Shown: positions 600-37,774 of the stretch, one piece after another
Position numbering within the stretch: position 1 is the first letter of the stretch
Layout of the letters: each line of letters opens with the position of its first letter
IMG/VR virus record: IMGVR_UViG_3300045988_054897
DNA: 39,591 nucleotides
Source: a virus
Reading direction: 5' to 3' (one strand)
Program-made: the position numbers and the translations under genes
The notes under the pieces: generated by a model
Databases searched by the model: none
What the model was told of the DNA's origin: nothing
The model's input: the letters and a program-made list of their open reading frames with translations, nothing else

Positions 600-1196
600 A
601 TGTGGCTACCTATATATGGATATGAGGGGATTTATGAAATAAGCGATTTTGGAGAAGTAAAAAGCCTAAACTACAACCATACCGGAAAAGAAAAGATTTT
701 GGCAAAGAAGCGCCATCGATCAGGATATGACACCGTTGTGCTCTGCAAAAACGCAGAAAAGAAAAATAAGTCTATACATATTCTTGTCGCACAAGCGTTT
801 GTAGATAACCCGCAACGAAAACCGCAAGTAAACCACAAAGATGGAAACAAGCACAACAATTGTGCAGAAAATCTTGAATGGGTTACTGCGTCGGAAAACA
901 TCAAGCACAGTTTTGATGTTCTCGGGAAGCAGCCAATTAACAAGGGTAGACTTGGGAAATCCCATTATGCTGCAAAACCAATATATCAATATTCCTTGGA
1001 TGGAACTCTCGTTAAGGCATGGGATTGCGTTTCGGACGCTGCCCGCGAAATTGGTTGTAAGCCTTGCCAAATCCTAAATAATGTAAAAGGCAGGAATAGA
1101 ACTTGTCATGGCTATATGTGGAGGTACGAAAAGTACAACAGCATAGGCACCGAGCCGGTAACCAGTCGGAAAACGCACAAAAAAACAGGCTTATAG
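600..1196 (+). CDS. HNH homing endonuclease (NUMOD4 + HNH_3 type), free-standing, opposite strand to its neighbours
   Basis: GYEGIYEISDFGEV (NUMOD4-like), VNHKDGNKHNNCAENLEWVTASEN (HNH), C-terminal ...GYMWRY DNA-binding tail; visibly AT-rich island. Confidence 0.9.
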   Translation: MWLPIYGYEGIYEISDFGEVKSLNYNHTGKEKILAKKRHRSGYDTVVLCKNAEKKNKSIHILVAQAFVDNPQRKPQVNHKDGNKHNNCAENLEWVTASENIKHSFDVLGKQPINKGRLGKSHYAAKPIYQYSLDGTLVKAWDCVSDAAREIGCKPCQILNNVKGRNRTCHGYMWRYEKYNSIGTEPVTSRKTHKKTGL

Positions 1197-3518: not shown

Positions 3519-3690
3519 TTTTGCGTTTCTCGGTCTGCGTGCCGAAGTAGAAGGCGATGATGGTCGTGAAGATCGTCAAAAACTCCGTCCCGCTGATGCT
3601 GCCGCGCAGGGCAAGCACCGAGAAAACCGCCGTGAGCGCGATGGTCACGATGCTCTTGACCGTAAGCAGATTGGCAATTCGATTTTGCAT
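3502..3690 (-). CDS. Holin (62 aa, 2 TM, charged C-terminus)
   Basis: Two hydrophobic stretches then TQTEKRKNEEIS; overlaps the endolysin start. Confidence 0.75.
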   Translation of the reverse strand: MQNRIANLLTVKSIVTIALTAVFSVLALRGSISGTEFLTIFTTIIAFYFGTQTEKRKNEEIS

Positions 3691-3702
3691 TTTTTGCCTC
3701 CT

Positions 3703-4410
3703 TTACAGAAACCGCACGGCATAAAACTGCCGCGTCTGTGTGTTGATTTTGTTACACGCGCCGTGGATGGCGGCGACGTGCCCGCCGTCGAGCATGACGG
3801 CGTATTCCAGCTTGAGCTTGTCCCGACAAAAGGCGTTGACCTGCTGCGCGGTCATGCTGCGGCAGTAGACGCCGTAGAGCAGCCCGCCCTTGTAGCCGAG
3901 GACGGTGTGGTTGGTCTTGCGCAGCACGTCGGAGTAAGCGCCTGTAAAGCCCTCCGCCGCGGGGTCATAGCGGTCGAGCAGGCCCATGCCCCCGACCGCC
4001 CACACGACGCCGCTTAGCGCCGCCGACGAGGACACGCGGGCAATGCGCACCGCGCCGTCCGTGGTCTTATAGAGCACGCTCTCGGGGCGCGGATAGTGAC
4101 AGCTCATGCCGCGCACGACCTTGCCGCCGCGCACGAGGATGCTGCACGGCTGACCCTGCCAAGAAAAGCTCCCCGAAATCGCGTTTTTCGGCAGCGGACC
4201 GCTCATGTTGACAGGCTCGATGTCCCGCGCGAGGATGCAGGGCTGACCGTATAGCTCGACGTTAAGGGGCCAGCAGTCCGCGCCGAGCTTGGCGGCGATG
4301 TCGCTCAAGGTCTGGTTGCCGATCCAGCCGTTGTCCAGCGCCCCGACGGAGCGCTGGATGGCGCGGATCATGCGAATCTCCTCCGAGGTAGAGCCTTTGA
4401 TGTCTTTCAC
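3703..4410 (-). CDS. Putative second cell-wall hydrolase, phosphodiester glycosidase (NAGPA/DUF2233)-like
   Basis: GTG 4410 overlaps the upstream stop (GTGA) after GGAGGTGG. ...NHTVLGYKGGLLYGVYC...LEYAVMLDGGHVAAI resembles the LDGGGS end of NAGPA domains; short PG-binding-like N-terminus. Confidence 0.55.
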   Translation of the reverse strand: MKDIKGSTSEEIRMIRAIQRSVGALDNGWIGNQTLSDIAAKLGADCWPLNVELYGQPCILARDIEPVNMSGPLPKNAISGSFSWQGQPCSILVRGGKVVRGMSCHYPRPESVLYKTTDGAVRIARVSSSAALSGVVWAVGGMGLLDRYDPAAEGFTGAYSDVLRKTNHTVLGYKGGLLYGVYCRSMTAQQVNAFCRDKLKLEYAVMLDGGHVAAIHGACNKINTQTRQFYAVRFL

Positions 4411-8837: not shown

Positions 8838-9209
8838 TCACTTCTCCGTCAACACGAGCACCGTACCCGTCCAGTATTCCGCCGCGTTTGTCCCCTGCCC
8901 CCGATCTACGCTTTCGGGCGGTTCGCAAGTCATTGCAGCCGTGCGGTAATCTCCCGTTTTAGGATCAAAAAAGTAGACGTTAAGCGTCCCGCTATAAAGC
9001 TGGGCCAGCAACGCATTTAGCTGCGTTTCGGTCAGCGGCATACAGGTGCAGGTGATGACTGCTTTAATTGCCAAAATGTCTTCGGTGAAACTCCCATCGA
9101 GCATATAGCCCTCGTTCGGCCCCTTGATCTTTTTGTGCGTAACCTTATAGCCAACCGGAGTAAAGTACGCAGTGAAGTCAACGTTATTGATCTTGATCGT
9201 TTTTCTCAT
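8838..9209 (-). CDS. Small tail component after the tape measure (Dit / gpM-like position)
   Basis: ORF track; overlaps the TMP stop; synteny. Confidence 0.6.
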   Translation of the reverse strand: MRKTIKINNVDFTAYFTPVGYKVTHKKIKGPNEGYMLDGSFTEDILAIKAVITCTCMPLTETQLNALLAQLYSGTLNVYFFDPKTGDYRTAAMTCEPPESVDRGQGTNAAEYWTGTVLVLTEK

Positions 9210-10496
9210 GCTCCACTCCTTACCGCTTCTGCTTCGTTGTAAGGCACCATTTTTCGAGCCAGTACGGTGCCGTCCAGTTCGGTCGTCAGGTTAATAATGA
9301 TCTGGCCTTCTTTTCCCGCTGCCATAGAGCCAATCCCGGAGGCGATAGAGTTCCCAATAGCCGCAGCGCCAGAAGCTCCAAAATCAATAGATGCGGTTCC
9401 AAAGTCAAGGTTTTTCGAGATGTCGCGCTTAATGAAACCGAACTCGCTGTCCCATCCTTCTCCGAGACCCAACGCCATGTTTGCGCCGATCCCCGCAAAC
9501 ACGCGAGACGGAGAGTGGATGCCGAGCGTTGATTTTACGCCGTCTACAATACCGTCAAAAAAGCCCTCGACCATGCTTTTAAGCCAGTCGCCCATCCTTT
9601 TAATGCCATCCCAAATGCCTTGGACAAGAGCGACGCCGATTTCGATTGCCGCTTCTCCGATATAGCTAAGAGATTGGATAAATGCAGACGCAAGATTTTT
9701 GACAATCTTGGGTGCTTCCGCCAAAAGGGTGGGCAAATTATCAACAAGCCCCTCAACAAGCGCGACGATAAACAGCGTACTTGCCTCAACAAGAGCAACA
9801 AGCGTGTCTGGTTGTGTCAACACTTCCGCAATCTGTGCCACGCAATTTGCTAACTGCGGCGCAATTTCCGGCATAGCCGATGCAATTCCTTGTACTAAAG
9901 CGATCAGCATTTGGACGCCTACGTCTAATAGCTGGGGTATAATTGACAGGATCGCTCCGGTGATTTGCGGTGCCATATCAGCAAGCGCCGAAACGATGCC
10001 TGGCGCTGCGTCTACCACGCCTTGCACTAATGCTGTGGCAGCATCTACAAGCGACGGCAAAACAGAGCTTACGAGCGACGGCAGTTGTTCCGAAATAACA
10101 GGTGCAAGCTTGACAATAAGATCGCCAAATCCCGTGAAAATCTTTTCTATGCGCGGGATAATGTTTTCTGCGGCCTTGCTGACCGAATAGGTAAAGTTTT
10201 CAATCAACTTGTCAAGGTCCGCGTTATCGTCTGCAATTCCGGTCACAAGGTTTGACCAAGCGGACTTCATCATGTTAACGCTGCCTTCGATAGTGCTTGC
10301 CGCTTCCTCTGCCGTTGTTCCGGTGATTCCCATTTGATCTTGGATCACATGGATTGCTTCAATCATCTTGTCGAAAGAAACGCTATTGACTGTGTCCGCT
10401 GTAACTTCAACGGTGTCGCCCAATACCCCGGAATCGTTAATAAGGCGCGCCATCTCTGTTGCTGTCCCGCCATAACCGAGCTTGAGATTATCTAAC
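9206..10496 (-). CDS. Tape measure protein, exon 2
   Basis: From G 10496: (M)LDNLKLGYGGTATEMARLIND... then Ala/Ile/Val-rich helical repeats; see intron feature. Confidence 0.8.
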
Positions 10497-11366
10497 CATT
10501 TCGTTACCCCCGGTTTCCCGGTATTATAAAAAGCCACGCGCGTTTCCGCACATGGCTTTTAAGGGATTAGACTATATCTTCAACTTTTTCAAAAATCCAG
10601 CCCTTTTTATTTCTCTTGCGGTATCGACTGTTGTACTTAATTTCGCTGTCAGAACAGTGGAAGTATTCAGCCGCCGCTTGTCTGGATTCAAATAGGATCG
10701 TTTTGCCGTCGAGATGTGTGGCCCTTACAGGGCGCTTCTTATTTTTAATTCTGGAATGATACCCATACGACAGTGCGTTTTCAGAGGGCGTCACCCATCT
10801 CAAATTAGAAACGTCATTGTTTGAGCGGTTCCCGTCTATGTGGTCAACCCAGCACCTTTCTTTGTTCTCTGGTTTTTCAAGAAAAGCATCAGCAACAAGT
10901 CGGTGTACATGCTTAGATATTGTAATCCTGCAATATCCAGCATTTTTGCTAAGCACCATTATTTGCCCGGTGCTATCTTTCTTAACTCTGCCCTTATTGC
11001 TGACTGAGTATCCCGGTAAATCGGGAATCTGTTTCCAAATCTCCACGGCTTTTAATCCTTTCAGAAAAAGTTGGTGCGCACTTCCAACGTCGTACCAATA
11101 GGCGTTGTACTCGGTGACGAACCGATAGTCGTTTGACCTTCTATGCTTTGTATTATATCATAATTTCACATGCTTTGCAAGTGTAATTTTGATATAGCAT
11201 AGCTTGGCACAGGATAACCATGCTGTAAAAGCCATAAACAGTTTAGGTTTCCCCTGTTAGCACAACTGTCTCATGCGGCCATTTCCTGCCGCCTTTTCAG
11301 CTGCACACCCGTGGTAGGTTCACGCACGCTCACTGCATAATCACTTATGCAGCGGACATTAGATTT
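10497..11366 (-). mobile_element. Group I intron (870 nt) carrying an HNH homing endonuclease, inserted in the tape measure gene
   Basis: 5' exon ends in U (..ACGAU|), intron ends in G (..GAAAUG|). J8/7-like AAGAUAUAGUC at 10580..10570. UAAUCC (10569..10564) can pair with GGAUUA (11058..11053) as P7. Two GAAA-tetraloop hairpins lie at 10510..10555. Confidence 0.75.
10567..11046 (-). CDS. HNH homing endonuclease (intron-encoded)
   Basis: GTG start; PGYSVSNKGRV (NUMOD4-like), VDHIDGNRSNNDVSNLRWVTPSEN (HNH); AT-rich. Confidence 0.85.
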   Translation of the reverse strand: MEIWKQIPDLPGYSVSNKGRVKKDSTGQIMVLSKNAGYCRITISKHVHRLVADAFLEKPENKERCWVDHIDGNRSNNDVSNLRWVTPSENALSYGYHSRIKNKKRPVRATHLDGKTILFESRQAAAEYFHCSDSEIKYNSRYRKRNKKGWIFEKVEDIV

Positions 11367-11845
11367 ATCGTATAGTTCTGCTTGGCAAACCCCTGATAGG
11401 CATTTTGGATCATTTCCATACTTGTGCCCATCTTGTTGGCATTATCTGCCATGTCAATGACGGCCTGATTGGCGATCTCTGCCGCCTTTTCCGTGTCTCC
11501 GCCAAGACCTTGCAGCAAGGACGCCGAAAAAGATGTAACGGTATCCATGTACTCGTTGGCAGACAATCCGGCGGTTTCGTAGGCGCGATTTGCGTACCCT
11601 ATCACTTGATCGGCGGACTGCTTAAACAGCGTTTCCACGCCGCCGACAAGCTGTTCATATTCCGCGTAACCGTCCAAAGATTGTTTTGTTAAGAGGGACA
11701 CGGCCCCGGCAGCAGCGGCAACTGCCGCCGTGCCGATTTTTGCCGCCGTTTTTAGCCCGCTTCCAATTTTTGACGCAATCCCGCCCAAATTGGAACTTGC
11801 TTGATCGTCTACGCTGATTTTGACAAATAAATCAAGTAGATTCAT
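11367..11845 (-). CDS. Tape measure protein, exon 1
   Basis: MNLLDLFVKISVDD...MIQNAYQGFAKQNYT; 479 + 1291 nt = 590 codons once joined to exon 2. Confidence 0.8.
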
Positions 11846-16092: not shown

Positions 16093-16136
16093 AAAACAAA
16101 AGAGCCAACCACCAAGAATTTCTCAGTAGTTGGCTC
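16093..16136 (-). terminator. Intrinsic terminator after the RHH gene, inside the structural gene block
   Basis: Minus strand: GAGCCAAC...GTTGGCTC then TTTTGTTTT. Confidence 0.6.
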
Positions 16137-16177
16137 CTATTGCCCTTTCCCGCGCCCTATTACGCGGAAGATGTTAT

Positions 16178-21981: not shown

Positions 21982-22732
21982 GCGCTCACTCCCTTTCGTT
22001 TTGCTACCAGCCCCCACCCCTTGGCCTTACATAGCAGACTTTACCCGCCCCGCAGTCTCTACCATTACCCCACGCATAAGCGCAAGCCTTCGATTTTGAG
22101 GGGCATACACGCTGTCTCTTCCAGCCGTCAAGATTGGTTTGCATAACCTCCGTGCCCAAAGACACGAGCCGCTATCCGGTACGGCATTGCAGTCCTGCCC
22201 TGCTTTAGCGCTTCGGGGAAAGTCCCCGTCACTCGCTGTGGTCTTCCCTTACGGGGCACCTATGCCGTGTATGTGCAGATCCCGCTTAGATTGTCACACG
22301 CTCATGCCCGCTTGAGGCCCCGCAAGCATTTCAAGCGCTTTCATCAGTAACGGCAAGGAGGACGCATCCCCACGCGCAGTTTTCAGCAGGCATTGTCATT
22401 CTCTGTGAGGCGTTCTGCGTACTCTCACATCATCCGGGAGCGACCCGGCCTCTGGCACGGACAGTTGGGAATCGAACCCACCGCACACGGTTTTGGAGAC
22501 CGCGTCGCCACCTTGGTACATTTGCCCGTATATGTCTCCCCTGGGACACATCGGTGAGAGGTGCGGGGAGTCCGGTCATGTGGGCGACCTCGGCGCCGAG
22601 GTCTAGTCACGGTTGCCGCGAGGACGGTGCGACCGTCCAGCCCTCGGAAGGTGATGTGCATACGAGCCACGGCATATTGCCCTCAACCGCCCGCCCCGAA
22701 GGGCGGGCTATCAAGGGAGGAGGAAACAGATG
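21982..22732 (-). ncRNA. Candidate large structured RNA or structured late-operon leader (class unknown; GOLLD/ROOL-like context)
   Basis: ~750 nt with no RBS-preceded ORF, GC as high as in coding DNA, many perfect local stems, embedded tRNA-like element; strand inferred from that element. Confidence 0.4.
22453..22529 (-). tRNA. tRNA-Trp(CCA)-like element with a defective D stem (pseudo-tRNA or tRNA-like module)
   Basis: Acceptor ACGGGCA/TGTCCGT + G + CCA; anticodon arm GCGGT-CTCCAAA-ACCGT; GGTTCGATTCC T arm with one extra nt; D stem TGTA vs GCGA does not pair. Confidence 0.4.
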
Positions 22733-36083: not shown

Positions 36084-36476
36084 ATGAATATTCAAGAAGT
36101 GTGCAGAATCCGTAAAGAGGACTTAAAACTGACCTATCAAGACATTTCCGACGATTCCGGCGTACCGCTGTCCACCGTGCAGAATTTCTTTTCCAAGTTT
36201 TCGAAAGCTCCGTCGATCTACACCGTCGCGCCGATTTGCAAAGCGCTTGGAATATCGCTTGATGAAGCGTTCGGAATTTCCGAACACTTGACACCGACCG
36301 AGGAAACTTTGCAGGCGCGGAATGACGAGCTGGAACGCCATGTTGACGCGAAAGCGGATACCATTGAGATCATGCGGCGCGGCGTGCGTATCCGCAACGG
36401 CGTGATTGCTATAATGTTTGTCATTATCGTTCTGCTGTCTGCATGGTGCTTGTATATTGATTGGAGGGGGATTTGA
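36084..36476 (+). CDS. XRE HTH protein with C-terminal TM segment, coupled to the integrase
   Basis: KLTYQDISDDSGVPLSTVQNFFS; C-terminal VIAIMFVIIVLLSAWCLYI; stop overlaps the integrase ATG. Confidence 0.7.
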   Translation: MNIQEVCRIRKEDLKLTYQDISDDSGVPLSTVQNFFSKFSKAPSIYTVAPICKALGISLDEAFGISEHLTPTEETLQARNDELERHVDAKADTIEIMRRGVRIRNGVIAIMFVIIVLLSAWCLYIDWRGI

Positions 36477-37774
36477 TGAGAGCGGCGCTATATATCCGAG
36501 TGTCCAGCGAGGAACAGGCGCGGCATGGTCTATCATTACAAGAGCAGCGGGACACGCTGACAAGGTATGCCAATGCAAATAAAATGACCGTGGTGGGCAT
36601 ATATGAGGACGCGGGCATATCCGCGCGAAAGCCGTATAAAAAGCGACCTGCGCTCCTGCGGCTGCTGGATAATTGCAAAGCGGGGAAGGTAGACACGATT
36701 CTGTTTATCAAGCTCGACCGATGGTTTCGCAATGTCGCGGGATACTACGACGTGCAGACGCAGTTGGACAAATACGGCGTGACATGGCAGGCGACGGAAG
36801 AGGACTACGAAACGCGCACCGCGTCCGGGCGATTAAAGGTCAACATCATGCTTTCCGTCGCGCAGGACGAGGCCGACCGCACAAGCGAGCGGATCAAATT
36901 TATCAACAACGGCAAGCGTGCAAAAGGCCAACCGGCAGGGTCAAAAGCCCCTTTAGGGTATATCATCAAGGACAGGCAATACCAGATTGATAACGATACG
37001 GCAGATGCCGCGCGAGATATGTTTGCGGCGTATGTCAGACTGCAAAGCGTGTTGGGCGTAAAACGCTATATGCTTGAGACATGGGGCATTGACCGCGCGT
37101 ATACCAAGTATGTAAACTATTTTCGGAACCGGCTTTATATCGGCGAGGTGTACGGCATCGAGAATGCTTGCCCCGCCCTGGTGAGCAAGCAGGATTTTGA
37201 CATTGTAAATGATATCCTCCGTCAGCGGTCGCAGCGCTGCGCGGGAGTTGAGACAGATCGCGTTTATCTGTTCTCGGGGTTGCTGCATTGCAAAGAGTGT
37301 GGGAAAACGATGCAGTCGGAAACGGCAAAGCATATCTATACCTACTACCGATGCCGGACGCGAATGCTTGACAACTCCGCGTGCCAGCATAAAAAGAGGA
37401 TCCGCGAAGACGCGCTGGAAGATTACTTATTGCATGAGCTTGAAGGGATTGCCGAGCGAAACAATCGCTATTACAAAAAGGCAGAAAAAAAGCCCACGCA
37501 AAGCGCGGACGCGATACGCAAGAAAATGGGTAAGTTGAAAACGCTTTATCTTAACGACTTGATCGAGTTGGACGAATACAAGAAAGAGTACACCACATTA
37601 AAGAAATCCATTGAAGCGGTAGAGGAAAAGCCGAAGACAAACCTTGACGCGCTCCGAAATGGACTTGCTGAATATGACACTTATTCCCGGGAAGAGAAAA
37701 AGGAATTCTGGACGCGCTTTATCCGGAGAATTGACGCAGATGACGACGGCGCGTTTTTTGTAACGCCACGTTAG
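36476..37774 (+). CDS. Large serine recombinase (phage integrase)
   Basis: Start at ATG 36476 after GGAGGGGG; AALYIRVSSEEQ catalytic Ser motif, recombinase domain, zinc ribbon CKECGKTMQ...YYRC, C-terminal coiled coil. Confidence 0.9.
   Translation: MRAALYIRVSSEEQARHGLSLQEQRDTLTRYANANKMTVVGIYEDAGISARKPYKKRPALLRLLDNCKAGKVDTILFIKLDRWFRNVAGYYDVQTQLDKYGVTWQATEEDYETRTASGRLKVNIMLSVAQDEADRTSERIKFINNGKRAKGQPAGSKAPLGYIIKDRQYQIDNDTADAARDMFAAYVRLQSVLGVKRYMLETWGIDRAYTKYVNYFRNRLYIGEVYGIENACPALVSKQDFDIVNDILRQRSQRCAGVETDRVYLFSGLLHCKECGKTMQSETAKHIYTYYRCRTRMLDNSACQHKKRIREDALEDYLLHELEGIAERNNRYYKKAEKKPTQSADAIRKKMGKLKTLYLNDLIELDEYKKEYTTLKKSIEAVEEKPKTNLDALRNGLAEYDTYSREEKKEFWTRFIRRIDADDDGAFFVTPR

What the first reader, a model, noticed from the sequence alone, without database searches (positions are those of the whole stretch)
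9206..11845. Tape-measure gene split by a group I intron carrying an HNH homing endonuclease
ORF 11345..11845 reads ...NAYQGFAKQNYT and then drifts into INLMSAA*. ORF 9206..10537 contains ...TKW-LDNLKLGYGGTATEMARL. Joining 11367 to 10496 gives ...AKQNYT-M-LDNLKLGYGGT... in one frame (479 + 1291 nt = 590 codons). As far as I recall, this is the conserved NYTMLDNLKLGYGG block of Firmicute phage tape measures. The 5' exon ends in U and the 870-nt insert ends in G. The insert contains AAGAUAUAGUC (10580..10570), which matches the group I J8/7 consensus. This is followed by UAAUCC, which can pair with GGAUUA (11058..11053) to form P7, placing the HNH ORF in the P8 loop. Two GAAA-tetraloop hairpins then lie just before the 3' splice site. 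Introns in structural tail genes are uncommon.
Basis: partly seen in the sequence, partly recalled or inferred. Interest (0 to 1): 0.65.

Follow-up and report, generated by a model that had tools for sequence, protein, structure and literature searches.

The report
Mobile self-splicing intron in phage tail gene
The tail tape-measure gene of this gut-bacterial phage is interrupted by an 870-base self-splicing (group I) intron that carries its own DNA-cutting "homing" enzyme; the call is sound, but this is a further example of a known kind of element.

Summary
Joining 11367 to 10496 on the minus strand gives one 589-aa tape measure protein. Its junction, AYQGFAKQNYT-M-LDNLKLGYGGT, is identical and gap-free in four intron-less phage homologues. 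One viral contig is 97% identical around the site and lacks exactly these 870 nt.

The insert is a group I intron of the IA2 type. Rfam scores the window copy only 19.8 bits (cut-off 50). ORF-less homologues at the same site reach 51-54 bits, and the SP82 DNA-polymerase intron scores only 25.5.

I collected 49 distinct introns at this codon. On an alignment of 33 of them, a hand-drawn P1-P10 structure is 95.6% paired (35-42% in slid controls), with compensatory changes in 45 of 84 pairs.

P7 is GACUA (11130-11126) with UAGUC (10574-10570). The HNH gene does sit in the P8 loop and resembles I-HmuI.

Fifteen contigs carry a ~97%-identical intron in tape measure genes whose flanks are only 58-72% identical, which points to recent homing.

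No RNA data could be obtained. Tape-measure introns are already published (Bacillus cereus prophages 2008, vibriophage ICP1 2023).

The parts
11367..11845 (-). Tape measure exon 1. It encodes 159 codons plus the first two bases (AU) of the Met-160 codon, and ends in U 11367.
   Evidence: PHROG tape measure families match the spliced protein across the junction in one stretch
10497..11366 (-). Group I intron, IA2-type, 870 nt. Its last base is G 10497 (omega-G). G+C is 43.8%, against about 50% in the exons.
   Evidence: exactly 870 nt extra relative to the intron-less allele L148
9206..10496 (-). Tape measure exon 2. It starts with G 10496, the third base of the Met codon.
11355..11369 (-). P1 and the internal guide sequence. 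Exon G11369-A11368-U11367 plus intron A11366 pair with U11358-G11357-U11356-C11355, giving a U.G wobble at the 5' splice site. The P1 loop segment UCUAA (11363-11359) is the P10 strand.
   Evidence: the four P1 pairs are invariant in 33/33 sequences; for coordinates
10491..10495 (-). P10 partner in the 3' exon: UUAGA, pairing with intron UCUAA 11363-11359.
   Evidence: alignment columns 20/475 read UA 23, GC 3, CG 2, UG 3, so the guide changes together with the exon (for example UCGAA with CUCGA, UCCAA with CUGGA)
11345..11347 (-). UAA stop in the exon-1 reading frame, 7 codons into the intron, inside the P2 5' strand.
   Evidence: the first in-frame stop falls at intron nt 20, 23 or 26 in 48 of 49 family members, and P1-loop length variants differ by multiples of 3
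11333..11352 (-). P2 hairpin: CUGCAUAA-GUGA-UUAUGCAG.
   Evidence: helix 3: 100% paired, 4 of 6 pairs with changes on both sides
11321..11327 (-). P3 5' strand, GUGCGUG.
   Evidence: helix 4: 99.1% paired; pairs read UA22/CG11, GC28/AU3/UA2 and CG18/GC8/UA7. The alternative P3 was rejected.
11260..11318 (-). Two extra hairpins between the P3 5' strand and J3/4. My labels: Pa 11318-11308 and Pb 11306-11260. The inner Pb loop is AGGAAAUG (consensus CAGGAAAUGG).
   Evidence: helices 5-7 (95-98% paired, 9 of 15 pairs compensatory); the same arrangement is present in the SP82 DNA-polymerase intron
11209..11257 (-). P4 (ACAGGG 11257-11252 with UCCUGU 11214-11209), enclosing P5/P5a (11249-11216).
   Evidence: helix 8: the P4 pair at columns 129/173 reads GC16/AU13/CG4
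11136..11208 (-). P6 (GCC 11208-11206 with GGU 11138-11136), P6a, and a 50-nt P6 extension.
   Evidence: helices 9-11, 100% paired, with compensatory changes
11152..11180 (-). Sigma-70-like promoter motif, TTGCAA-17 nt-TATAAT with TG upstream, inside the P6 extension and 106 nt upstream of the HNH start codon.
   Evidence: 10 of 12 matches; the motif is at the same position in divergent ORF-carrying lineages (L001 TTGACT-17-TATAAT, L119) and absent from all 8 ORF-less introns. Function is inferred only.
11126..11130 (-). P7 5' strand GACUA, within the R element GGUCAAACGACUA.
   Evidence: helix 12: invariant; alignment to RF00028
11085..11125 (-). P7.1 (11125-11111), GUA linker (11110-11108) and P7.2 (11107-11085).
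   Evidence: helices 13-14: 98-99% paired, 8 of 10 pairs compensatory. The GUA linker as an IA2 signature comes from PMC3428280.
11074..11080 (-). P3 3' strand, UGCGCAC.
   Evidence: helix 4
11064..11073 (-). P8 5' strand, CAACUUUUUC.
   Evidence: helix 15: 7 of 10 pairs compensatory
10567..11046 (-). HNH homing endonuclease gene (159 aa, GTG start, AAAGGA ribosome-binding site at 11061-11056) in the P8 loop. Its last 8 codons and stop codon overlap the P8 3' strand, J8/7 and P7 3' strand.
   Evidence: HNH_3 46.1 bits, NUMOD4 42.1 bits; I-HmuI, PDB 1U3E, E 1.6e-8; phrog_59
10570..10590 (-). P8 3' strand GAAAAAGUUG (10590-10581), J8/7 AAGAUA (10580-10575) and P7 3' strand UAGUC (10574-10570).
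10507..10565 (-). P9 domain: closing stem CCC 10565-10563 with GGG 10509-10507; a 14-bp GAAA hairpin 10560-10529 (P9.1-like, followed by a U run); and CCGG-GAAA-CCGG 10521-10510 (P9.2-like).
   Evidence: helices 16-17 (all 4 P9.2 pairs compensatory); flags 10552..10535 as terminator-like

Best explanation
Bases 11366..10497 (minus strand) are a mobile group I intron of the IA2 type, in the same lineage as the SPO1/SP82 introns. It sits inside the codon for Met-160 of the phage tail tape measure protein.

Proposed pathway:
1. The late structural operon is transcribed through the intron.
2. Ribosomes translating exon 1 stop at the in-frame UAA 7 codons into the intron, inside P2. This leaves the ribozyme core free to fold.
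3. The RNA folds into P1-P9, with the P3/P7 pseudoknot and P7.1/P7.2.
4. A free guanosine attacks after U11367, which forms the U.G wobble in the 4-bp P1.
5. The guide segment UCUAA holds the 3' exon (P10). The exons are ligated after G10497.
6. The ligated mRNA encodes a 589-aa tape measure protein reading ...QNYTMLDNLKLGYGG....

The P8 loop carries an I-HmuI-like HNH endonuclease gene. It is probably transcribed from its own promoter in the P6 extension. The enzyme would nick or cut intron-less tape measure alleles of co-infecting or resident phages. Repair from the intron-bearing copy then copies the intron in (homing), along with a few flanking exon bases.

Shown here: the exon junction, precise presence and absence of the 870 nt, the conserved and covarying RNA fold, homology of the ORF, and a population pattern of horizontal spread.

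Inferred only: actual splicing, endonuclease activity and its cleavage site, and promoter use.
For: Junction:
- The spliced protein aligns as a single piece, 70.8% identical over residues 1-280, to the Flavonifractor phage Chenonceau tape measure protein.
- AYQGFAKQNYTMLDNLKLGYGGT is identical with 0 gaps in 4 intron-less phages.
- 79 of 80 sampled homologues are contiguous at the junction.
- L148 is 97.0% identical over +-250 nt, and the window has exactly 870 extra nt.

Ribozyme:
- RF00028 aligns full-length to 11308..10551 at E 0.022.
- ORF-less homologues at the same site score 54 and 51 bits, at or above the cut-off of 50.
- Covariation: 95.6% of cells paired against 35-42% in slid controls; 45 of 84 pairs compensatory against 8-17; score 0.353 against 0.05-0.07 slid and 0.131 shuffled, reached by 0 of 500 shuffles.
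- P10 covaries with the exon.
- The in-frame stop in P2 is conserved.

Endonuclease gene.

Mobility:
- 15 loci carry an intron 96.6-96.9% identical, while their flanks are 67-72% and 58-62% identical.
- Intron-bearing alleles read ACG-AU|G. 52 of 79 intron-less alleles read ACC at that Thr codon.
- Relative to L148, differences cluster at -3, +2, +4 and +10.

Context: the gene sits between the major tail protein with chaperone-sized ORFs upstream and tail proteins downstream, in a siphovirus structural module.
Against: - No RNA or protein evidence of splicing.
- The window copy scores only 19.8 bits on RF00028 (cut-off 50) and gives no hit at gathering. The SP82 DNA-polymerase intron, a close relative of the SPO1 intron that I recall was shown to self-splice, also scores only 25.5 bits.
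- P1 is only 4 bp.
- The window copy has a 1-nt deletion with a mismatch in hairpin Pa, and a C.A mismatch in P7.2.
- The end of the ORF overlaps P8, J8/7 and P7, so translating it could compete with folding.
- The 14-bp P9.1 hairpin followed by a U run looks like an intrinsic terminator inside an essential gene.
- My structure was drawn partly from these same sequences, which favours it over the slid controls.
Confidence: 0.88

Rival explanations
1. There is no splicing. A free-standing HNH gene has landed inside the tape measure gene, and the two halves are made as separate polypeptides. This is how GenBank annotates the equivalent loci in Lactococcus phage 38502, Streptococcus phage Javan271 and Str-PAP-1.
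For: Database annotations list 'tapemeasure protein' twice plus 'HNH endonuclease'. A GTG at 10537 opens an ORF that covers exon 2.
Against: - Eight family members split the gene with a 272-340-nt insert that has no ORF at all.
- The insert has a covarying group I fold.
- The GTG at 10537 lies inside the P9.1 stem and has no Shine-Dalgarno sequence upstream.
- The break falls inside a codon of the most conserved motif of the protein.
Confidence: 0.03
2. It is a genuine group I intron, but this copy no longer splices efficiently. The tape measure gene, and therefore the prophage, would be defective.
For: The window copy has small blemishes: the Pa deletion and mismatch, and a C.A mismatch in P7.2. 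The window carries a serine recombinase, so it may be a resident prophage that could tolerate decay.
Against: The same 870-nt form, with an open HNH frame of the same length in 9 of 11 distinct sequences, occurs at about 97% identity in at least 15 different viral contigs with divergent tape measure genes. That pattern is expected only for an actively spreading, splicing-competent element. All core helices, the P1 U.G wobble, omega-G and P10 are intact.
Confidence: 0.07
3. The insert is another kind of intervening element: an intein, a group II intron, or a translational bypass or recoding site.
For: None beyond the fact that the gene is interrupted.
Against: - The exon-1 frame hits UAA after 7 codons, and the HNH ORF has its own ribosome-binding site and start codon, so this is not an intein.
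- No group II or other family hit appeared in Rfam scans of the window.
- An 870-nt gap is far beyond any known bypass.
Confidence: 0.01

Closest known systems
SPO1 / SP82 DNA-polymerase group I introns of Bacillus phages, which encode the nicking HNH endonucleases I-HmuI and I-HmuII
   Same: - The ribozyme architecture matches element for element in the SP82 sequence: P2 hairpin, P3 5' strand, two hairpins (one with a CAGGAAAUGG loop), UAA-CAGGGG P4, AUCCUGUGCCAAG, the R element ACGACUA, P7.1-GUA-P7.2, and P8 holding the ORF.
- GUUGAAGAUAUAGUCUA is identical.
- The HNH ORF matches I-HmuI (PDB 1U3E) at E 1.6e-8.
- The SP82 intron also scores below the cut-off on RF00028 (25.5 bits).
   Different: - The host gene is a tape measure gene, not a DNA polymerase gene, and the guide sequence differs.
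- The 5' core is only about 59% identical in a local alignment.
- The host phages are temperate siphoviruses of gut Clostridia and lactic acid bacteria, not Bacillus myoviruses.
- The C-terminal half of the enzyme does not align with I-HmuI.
TMP-IVS1, -IVS2 and -IVS3 group I introns in tape measure genes of Bacillus cereus-group prophages (Tourasse and Kolsto 2008, PMC2504315)
   Same: They are group I introns of class IA1 or IA2 in prophage tape measure genes. They have an in-frame stop codon early in the intron, some carry endonuclease genes and some have lost them, and P1/P10 are adapted to the site.
   Different: The host tape measure proteins differ (over 1200 aa). I could not test whether any of their three sites corresponds to the NYT-M-LDN site, because no Bacillus prophage sequence was at hand.
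Vibriophage ICP1 tape measure intron with an HNH-3 endonuclease gene (Barth, Nguyen and Seed 2023, PMC10448857)
   Same: A tape measure gene interrupted by an intron carrying an HNH_3-type endonuclease gene. Splicing was shown there by RNA-seq and RT-PCR. The authors call the tape measure gene a 'frequently interrupted gene'.
   Different: It is a phage of a Gram-negative host. No sequence relationship was tested. No splicing data exist for the present intron.
Unrecognised homologous introns in Streptococcus phage Javan271, Streptococcus phage Str-PAP-1 and Lactococcus phage 38502
   Same: Same ribozyme family, same insertion codon, same type of endonuclease gene.
   Different: They are 57-70% identical to the window intron. 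The records annotate them as split proteins, and the paper on phage 38502 does not mention an intron. Javan271 and Str-PAP-1 each carry a second intron nearby.
Group I introns in capsid and minor-tail genes of Cluster J mycobacteriophages (PMC3706429)
   Same: Introns in virion structural genes, spliced during late expression. One of them carries a homing endonuclease.
   Different: Different genes, different hosts (Actinobacteria), and no sequence similarity was tested.

Membership tests
Group I intron | P1 helix formed by the end of the 5' exon and an internal guide sequence, with a U.G wobble at the splice site | tested here: met
   G11369-A11368-U11367|A11366 pairs with U11358-G11357-U11356-C11355. 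All four pairs, including U.G, are present in 33/33 aligned family members. The exon U and intron-terminal G in 49/49 are partly built in by how I extracted the introns.
Group I intron | Conserved core: P3-P8 with the P3/P7 pseudoknot, the P4-P6 domain, and the R and S sequence elements (J8/7 plus P7) | tested here: met
   84 pairs in 17 helices are 95.6% paired. 45 pairs have compensatory changes, against 8-17 in slid controls. 0 of 500 shuffles reach the observed covariation score. GGUCAAACGACUA and AAGAUAUAGUC align to the RF00028 consensus.
Group I intron | Terminal G (omega-G) and a P10 pairing between the guide sequence and the 3' exon | tested here: met
   The intron ends at G10497. UCUAA 11363-11359 pairs with UUAGA 10495-10491. 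The guide and the exon change together in relatives: UA 23, GC 3, CG 2, UG 3 at one pair.
Group I intron | Score at or above the Rfam RF00028 gathering threshold (50 bits). This is an operational criterion, not a defining trait. | tested here: inconclusive
   Window: 19.8 bits, E 0.022 in a 1.3-kb scan and 0.69 window-wide, with no hit at gathering. ORF-less homologues at the same site: 54, 51, 41.9, 38.2, 34.9 and 34.4 bits. Control SP82 polymerase intron: 25.5 bits.
Group I intron | Guanosine-dependent self-splicing that yields ligated exons | not testable with these tools
There is no wet-lab access.
Subgroup IA2 | P7.1 and P7.2 hairpins between P7 and the P3 3' strand, linked by G-U-A (criterion as stated in PMC3428280), plus an extended P9 domain (PMC4227781) | tested here: met
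   P7.1 is 11125-11111, GUA is 11110-11108 (invariant), P7.2 is 11107-11085. 8 of their 10 pairs are compensatory. The P9 closing stem encloses two hairpins.
HNH homing endonuclease, I-HmuI-like (NUMOD4 + HNH_3) | HNH_3 catalytic domain and N-terminal NUMOD4 above the Pfam cut-offs; relationship to a characterised intron-encoded enzyme | tested here: met
   HNH_3 scores 46.1 bits (cut-off 24.8) and NUMOD4 42.1 bits (cut-off 23.4). I-HmuI (1U3E) matches at E 1.6e-8 over residues 4-96, and the motif VDHxDGNxxNN...NLRWVT is conserved.
HNH homing endonuclease, I-HmuI-like (NUMOD4 + HNH_3) | Site-specific cleavage or nicking of the intron-less allele, leading to homing | not testable with these tools
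   Indirect support only. The intron is about 97% identical across 15 loci whose flanks are 58-72% identical. A near-isogenic intron-minus allele exists. Synonymous differences cluster at the junction.
Phage tail tape measure protein | Homology to tape measure families, and position after the major tail protein and chaperone genes | tested here: met
   phrog_6900 at E 1.1e-80 covers residues 12-210 in one stretch, and phrog_58 and others also match. 384 phage records match, annotated as tape measure protein. The major tail protein lies at 13063-12476, just upstream.
Intein (considered) | An in-frame insertion translated together with the host protein | tested here: not met
   The exon-1 frame stops 7 codons into the insert. 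The HNH ORF has its own ribosome-binding site and start codon.

The most novel reading that the evidence does not exclude
The conserved N-terminal motif of this tape measure family (...NKMG-TS...QNYT-M-LDNLKLG-YGG...) may be a multi-site homing hot spot across phages of Bacillota. At least three intron sites fall within about 30 codons, and Javan271 has a 22-nt micro-exon between two introns.

The occupants belong to the SPO1-type ribozyme lineage, retargeted from DNA-polymerase genes by changes in the guide sequence. With its own promoter in P6 and a terminator-like P9.1, the endonuclease gene would be an autonomous transcription unit inside a late gene. The intron would then act as a weapon in competition between gut phages (marker exclusion) and not only as a neutral passenger.
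Probability: 0.3. Interest if true: 0.5.

Novelty: new member of a known kind. Interest (0 to 1): 0.3.

Why it matters
- Annotation. This tape measure gene, and its equivalents in at least three deposited phage genomes and dozens of metagenomic viral contigs, should be annotated as one spliced gene, not as two fragments plus an HNH gene.
- Detection. The standard Rfam model misses this ORF-bearing, SPO1-like intron class at its curated threshold. A dedicated model would recover many more.
- Experimental material. Near-isogenic intron-plus and intron-minus alleles, ORF-less derivatives and decayed endonuclease genes make this a convenient natural system for studying homing and the gain-decay-loss cycle of such genes in uncultured gut phages.
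- Concept. It adds no new principle. Tape measure introns and HNH-carrying IA2 introns are established.

Tried and rejected
1. An Rfam scan of the window at gathering thresholds found nothing. Only the permissive scan found RF00028.
3. GGAUUA overlaps the ribosome-binding site of the HNH gene, only 17 of 49 relatives contain GGATTA anywhere upstream of J8/7, and the canonical R/S pairing GACUA/UAGUC is invariant.
4. An Rfam-style P3, using the strand immediately 5' of J3/4, is rejected. It is 54.9% paired, has 0 compensatory pairs, and is no better than shuffles.
5. I first thought the two hairpins between P3 and P4 might be a new peripheral domain. That is rejected as a novelty, because the SP82 polymerase intron has them too. 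A literature search for 'P3.1/P3.2' found nothing relevant, so I could not attach a published name to them.
6. A tblastn search of plasmids found only uninterrupted homologues, apart from one weaker two-piece match that I did not examine, and gave no new information.
7. The paper describing Lactococcus phage 38502 does not mention the intron.
8. I did not build a family-specific covariance model.
9. The P5a, inner P6a and P9.1 stems were left out of the pair count, because MAFFT did not align those length-variable hairpins in register.
Full report
**What is in the sequence**

On the minus strand, ORF 11845..11345 ends ...NAYQGFAKQNYT and then runs INLMSAA-stop. ORF 10537..9206 contains ...TKWLDNLKLGYGGTATEMARL. 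Joining 11367 to 10496 gives 479 + 1291 nt, which is 589 codons plus a stop. The protein reads ...AKQNYTMLDNLKLGYGGT....

The intervening 870 nt (11366..10497) is 43.8% G+C, against about 50% for the exons and 53.9% for the window. It contains an ORF, 11046..10567, with NUMOD4 and HNH_3 domains.

**The junction is real**

- The first 280 residues of the joined protein align as a single piece, 70.8% identical, to the uninterrupted tape measure protein of Flavonifractor phage Chenonceau. 384 phage records match, and they are annotated as tape measure proteins.
- Around the junction, AYQGFAKQNYTMLDNLKLGYGGT is identical, with no gap, in Chenonceau, Microbacterium phage Kauala, Lactococcus phage phismq86 and an uncultured gut phage.
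- PHROG tape measure profiles cross the junction in one stretch.
- A scan of viral contigs for relatives returned 80 loci, and 79 of them are contiguous at this point.
- One of these, L148 (a 39.2-kb contig), is 97.0% identical to the window over +-250 nt. The window has exactly 870 additional nt relative to it. This is a near-isogenic intron-minus allele.

**The insert is a group I ribozyme**

Rfam gives no hit at curated thresholds. A permissive scan aligns the whole RF00028 model to 11308..10551 at 19.8 bits, with E 0.022 in a 1.3-kb scan and 0.69 for the whole window. That alone would be weak.

Searching public collections for GAAGATATAGTCTAATCCC returned more than 110 viral and 29 genomic loci. 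In 57 of them the same element sits at the same tape measure codon (...AAYTAYACGAU|A...UAAUGUCCGCUGC......AUG|GUUAGAYAA...). That is 49 distinct sequences of 272-905 nt. Eight have no ORF at all (272-340 nt). These compact forms score 54 and 51 bits on RF00028, at or above the threshold, and 34-42 bits for four others.

As a control I used the SP82 DNA-polymerase intron, a close relative of the SPO1 intron that I recall was shown to self-splice. It scores only 25.5 bits. Low scores are therefore typical of this ORF-bearing class.

**Covariation**

I aligned 33 non-redundant cores, with the P8 ORF loop trimmed and 8 nt of exon on each side. I then counted pairs for a structure drawn by hand.

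| Measure | Observed | Slid controls | Shuffles |
|---|---|---|---|
| Cells forming a standard pair | 95.6% | 35-42% | 83.7% |
| Pairs with changes on both sides (of 84) | 45 | 8-17 | 29.1 |
| Covariation score | 0.353 | 0.05-0.07 | 0.131 (0/500 reach observed) |

P2, P3, P4, P5, P6, P6a, P7.1, P7.2, P8 and P9.2 all contain compensatory pairs. P1 and P7 are invariant, and the P9 closing stem (P9.0) is nearly so.

One caveat applies. I derived the structure partly from these same sequences, which favours it over the slid versions. The number of independent pair types (for example CG18/GC8/UA7 in P3) is nevertheless hard to explain otherwise.

**Anatomy in window coordinates**

- P1: G11369-A11368-U11367|A11366 with U11358-G11357-U11356-C11355, giving U.G at the splice site.
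- P10: UCUAA 11363-11359 with 3' exon UUAGA 10495-10491. Relatives whose exon reads CUCGA or CUGGA have UCGAA or UCCAA in the guide.
- P2: 11352-11333.
- P3: 11327-11321 with 11080-11074.
- Two further hairpins: 11318-11308 and 11306-11260.
- J3/4 UAA, then P4: 11257-11252 with 11214-11209.
- P5/P5a: 11249-11216.
- P6/P6a plus an extension: 11208-11136.
- P7: GACUA 11130-11126 with UAGUC 10574-10570.
- P7.1: 11125-11111. GUA: 11110-11108. P7.2: 11107-11085.
- P8: 11073-11064 with 10590-10581, enclosing the HNH gene.
- J8/7: AAGAUA 10580-10575.
- P9 domain: 10565-10507, with two GAAA hairpins.
- Omega-G: 10497.

P7.1 and P7.2 joined by G-U-A, together with an extended P9 domain, are the stated hallmarks of subgroup IA2 (PMC3428280; PMC4227781).

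UAAUCC with GGAUUA is not P7. GGAUUA overlaps the AAAGGA ribosome-binding site of the HNH gene, and only 17 of 49 relatives contain GGATTA anywhere upstream of J8/7.

The P3 implied by the Rfam alignment, which uses the strand just 5' of J3/4, is also not supported. It is 54.9% paired, has no compensatory change, and equals the shuffles.

**An architectural oddity that is not new**

The two covarying hairpins between the P3 5' strand and J3/4 are not in the Rfam consensus. The SP82 intron has the same arrangement, including the CAGGAAAUGG loop and near-identical P4, Q, R and S elements. This is therefore a trait of the SPO1/SP82 intron lineage, to which the tape measure intron belongs.

**The endonuclease gene**

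The 159-aa product matches I-HmuI, the SPO1 intron-encoded HNH enzyme (PDB 1U3E), at E 1.6e-8 over residues 4-96. The VDHxDGNxxNN...NLRWVT motif is conserved. It also matches phrog_59, annotated as HNH endonuclease.

Its last 8 codons and stop codon overlap the P8 3' strand, J8/7 and the P7 3' strand. This explains the conserved ...VEDIV* ending across the family.

A promoter-like TTGCAA-17-TATAAT motif with an upstream TG lies in the P6 extension at 11180-11152. The motif is at the same place in lineages only 70% identical to the window (TTGACT-17-TATAAT in Javan271). It is missing, together with the P6 extension, from all eight ORF-less introns. I infer that the endonuclease gene brings its own promoter. 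This is not shown.

**Evidence for mobility**

- Fifteen loci carry an intron 96.6-96.9% identical to the window's. Their tape measure flanks are only 67-72% identical upstream (-300..-30) and 58-62% identical downstream (+30..+300).
- Intron-bearing alleles always read ACG-AU|G at the Thr-Met codons, and G at -3 pairs in P1. In 52 of 79 intron-less alleles the Thr codon is ACC, and Leu is mostly CUN.
- Against the 97%-identical L148, differences cluster at -3, +2, +4 and +10. This fits co-conversion, selection for P1/P10 pairing, or both.
- Members with decayed ORFs (longest frame 67-78 aa), and ORF-less members that still retain the ORF's 3' end, show the usual gain-decay-loss cycle.

**Translation and folding**

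The exon-1 frame meets a stop (UAA, UAG or UGA) at intron nt 20, 23 or 26 in 48 of 49 members. The stop always lies in the P2 5' strand, and P1-loop length variants differ by 3 or 6 nt. This matches the published view that an early in-frame stop keeps ribosomes out of the ribozyme core (PMC3984707; PMC2504315).

**Context**

The window looks like a nearly complete temperate siphovirus of gut Clostridia:

- Large terminase: 21557-20325.
- Portal: 20289-18934.
- Major head protein: 15389-14247.
- Major tail protein: 13063-12476.
- Two chaperone-sized ORFs, then the split tape measure gene, then tail genes.
- CHAP endolysin: 3518-2856.
- Serine recombinase: 36461-37774.
- tRNA-Trp: 22453-22529.

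The closest cultured relative for the tape measure protein is Flavonifractor phage Chenonceau. Genome contigs carrying the intron family come from Oscillospiraceae, Gemmiger, Tissierellia, Peptostreptococcaceae, Ileibacterium and Companilactobacillus, among others.

**Comparison with what is known**

- Group I introns in prophage tape measure genes were described in the Bacillus cereus group in 2008, at three sites, of class IA1 or IA2 (PMC2504315).
- A 2023 study calls the tape measure gene a 'frequently interrupted gene' and shows by RNA-seq and RT-PCR that the ICP1 tape measure intron, with an HNH-3 endonuclease gene, is spliced (PMC10448857).
- Spliced introns in capsid and tail genes are known in mycobacteriophages (PMC3706429).
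- The same intron family as here already sits, unrecognised, in Javan271, Str-PAP-1 and Lactococcus phage 38502.

The finding is therefore correct but ordinary in kind. It is a new member of a known class. Its main value is for annotation and as study material.

**Limits**

- No transcript or protein data were available.
- Endonuclease activity, its cleavage site and promoter use are inferences.
- The U at the exon end and the G at the intron end in all 49 members are partly imposed by the patterns I used to extract them.

Noticed in passing
window 600-1196 (+): A second HNH gene (NUMOD4 + HNH_3 + weak NUMOD1, 198 aa) lies on the opposite strand to its neighbours. It is 30% identical to the intron-borne one. 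No group I core or AAGATATAGTC motif is nearby, so it appears to be free-standing.
   Followed up: partly
window 11152-11180 (-): A near-consensus promoter motif (TTGCAA-17-TATAAT with upstream TG) lies inside the P6 extension of the intron. The position is conserved in ORF-carrying relatives, and the motif is absent from all ORF-less ones. It is probably the endonuclease gene's own promoter.
   Followed up: partly
window 10529-10560 (-): The 14-bp GAAA-capped P9.1 hairpin is followed by a U run and is flagged as terminator-like. It lies just downstream of the HNH stop codon, in the middle of an essential late gene.
   Followed up: no
L001 (Streptococcus phage Javan271) 3568-3886: A second, ORF-less group I-like intron (3590-3886, 297 nt) follows the first after a 22-nt micro-exon (3568-3589). 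It splits ...LKLG|YGG.... L062 shows the same arrangement.
   Followed up: partly
L146 (Streptococcus phage Str-PAP-1) 1454-3330; L114 4872-5187: The Str-PAP-1 tape measure gene has two endonuclease-bearing interruptions, after ...NKMG and after ...QNYT. L114 has a second RF00028 hit (30.6 bits) about 100 nt upstream of the main intron. The conserved N-terminal motif region therefore looks like a multi-site intron hot spot.
   Followed up: partly
L166 (IMGVR_UViG_3300029307_000057), junction region: This intron-less tape measure allele has exactly the exon sequence typical of intron-bearing alleles (AACTACACGATGTTAGATAA). It was the only one of 79 with that sequence. It may be a footprint of precise intron loss.
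   Followed up: no
L015, L027, L048, L062; L024, L033, L114: Some family members have broken endonuclease ORFs (longest frame 67-78 aa). Some ORF-less members still keep the last codons of the ORF (GW.F..VEDIV*). These look like stages of endonuclease-gene decay and loss.
   Followed up: partly
window 22453-22529 (-): A tRNA-Trp (CCA) gene lies between the terminase region and the upstream genes. Rfam reports it only as a sub-threshold tRNA-Sec hit (38.1 bits against a cut-off of 47).
   Followed up: partly
window 22044-22107 (-) and 16126-16172 (-): Two sub-threshold Rfam hits: DUF3800-VIII RNA (36 bits, cut-off 40.2, E 0.0046) and gut-2 RNA (27.5 bits, cut-off 39.8, E 0.056).
   Followed up: no
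L122 and L131 (contigs binned as Candidatus Saccharibacteria); L120-L141 (Omnitrophota, Nomurabacteria): The J8/7-P7 pattern, and in L122 the complete tape measure intron, occur on contigs assigned to candidate-phyla-radiation bacteria and other non-Bacillota genomes assembled from metagenomes. This is either a wide host range for the ribozyme lineage or mis-binning.
   Followed up: no
GenBank records KX160204 (DS38502_51-53), MK448723 (Javan271_0045-0047), KP208803: The deposited annotations list the tape measure exons as separate proteins ('tapemeasure protein' twice, 'minor tail protein', 'hypothetical protein'), and the intron is not annotated as a feature.
   Followed up: yes
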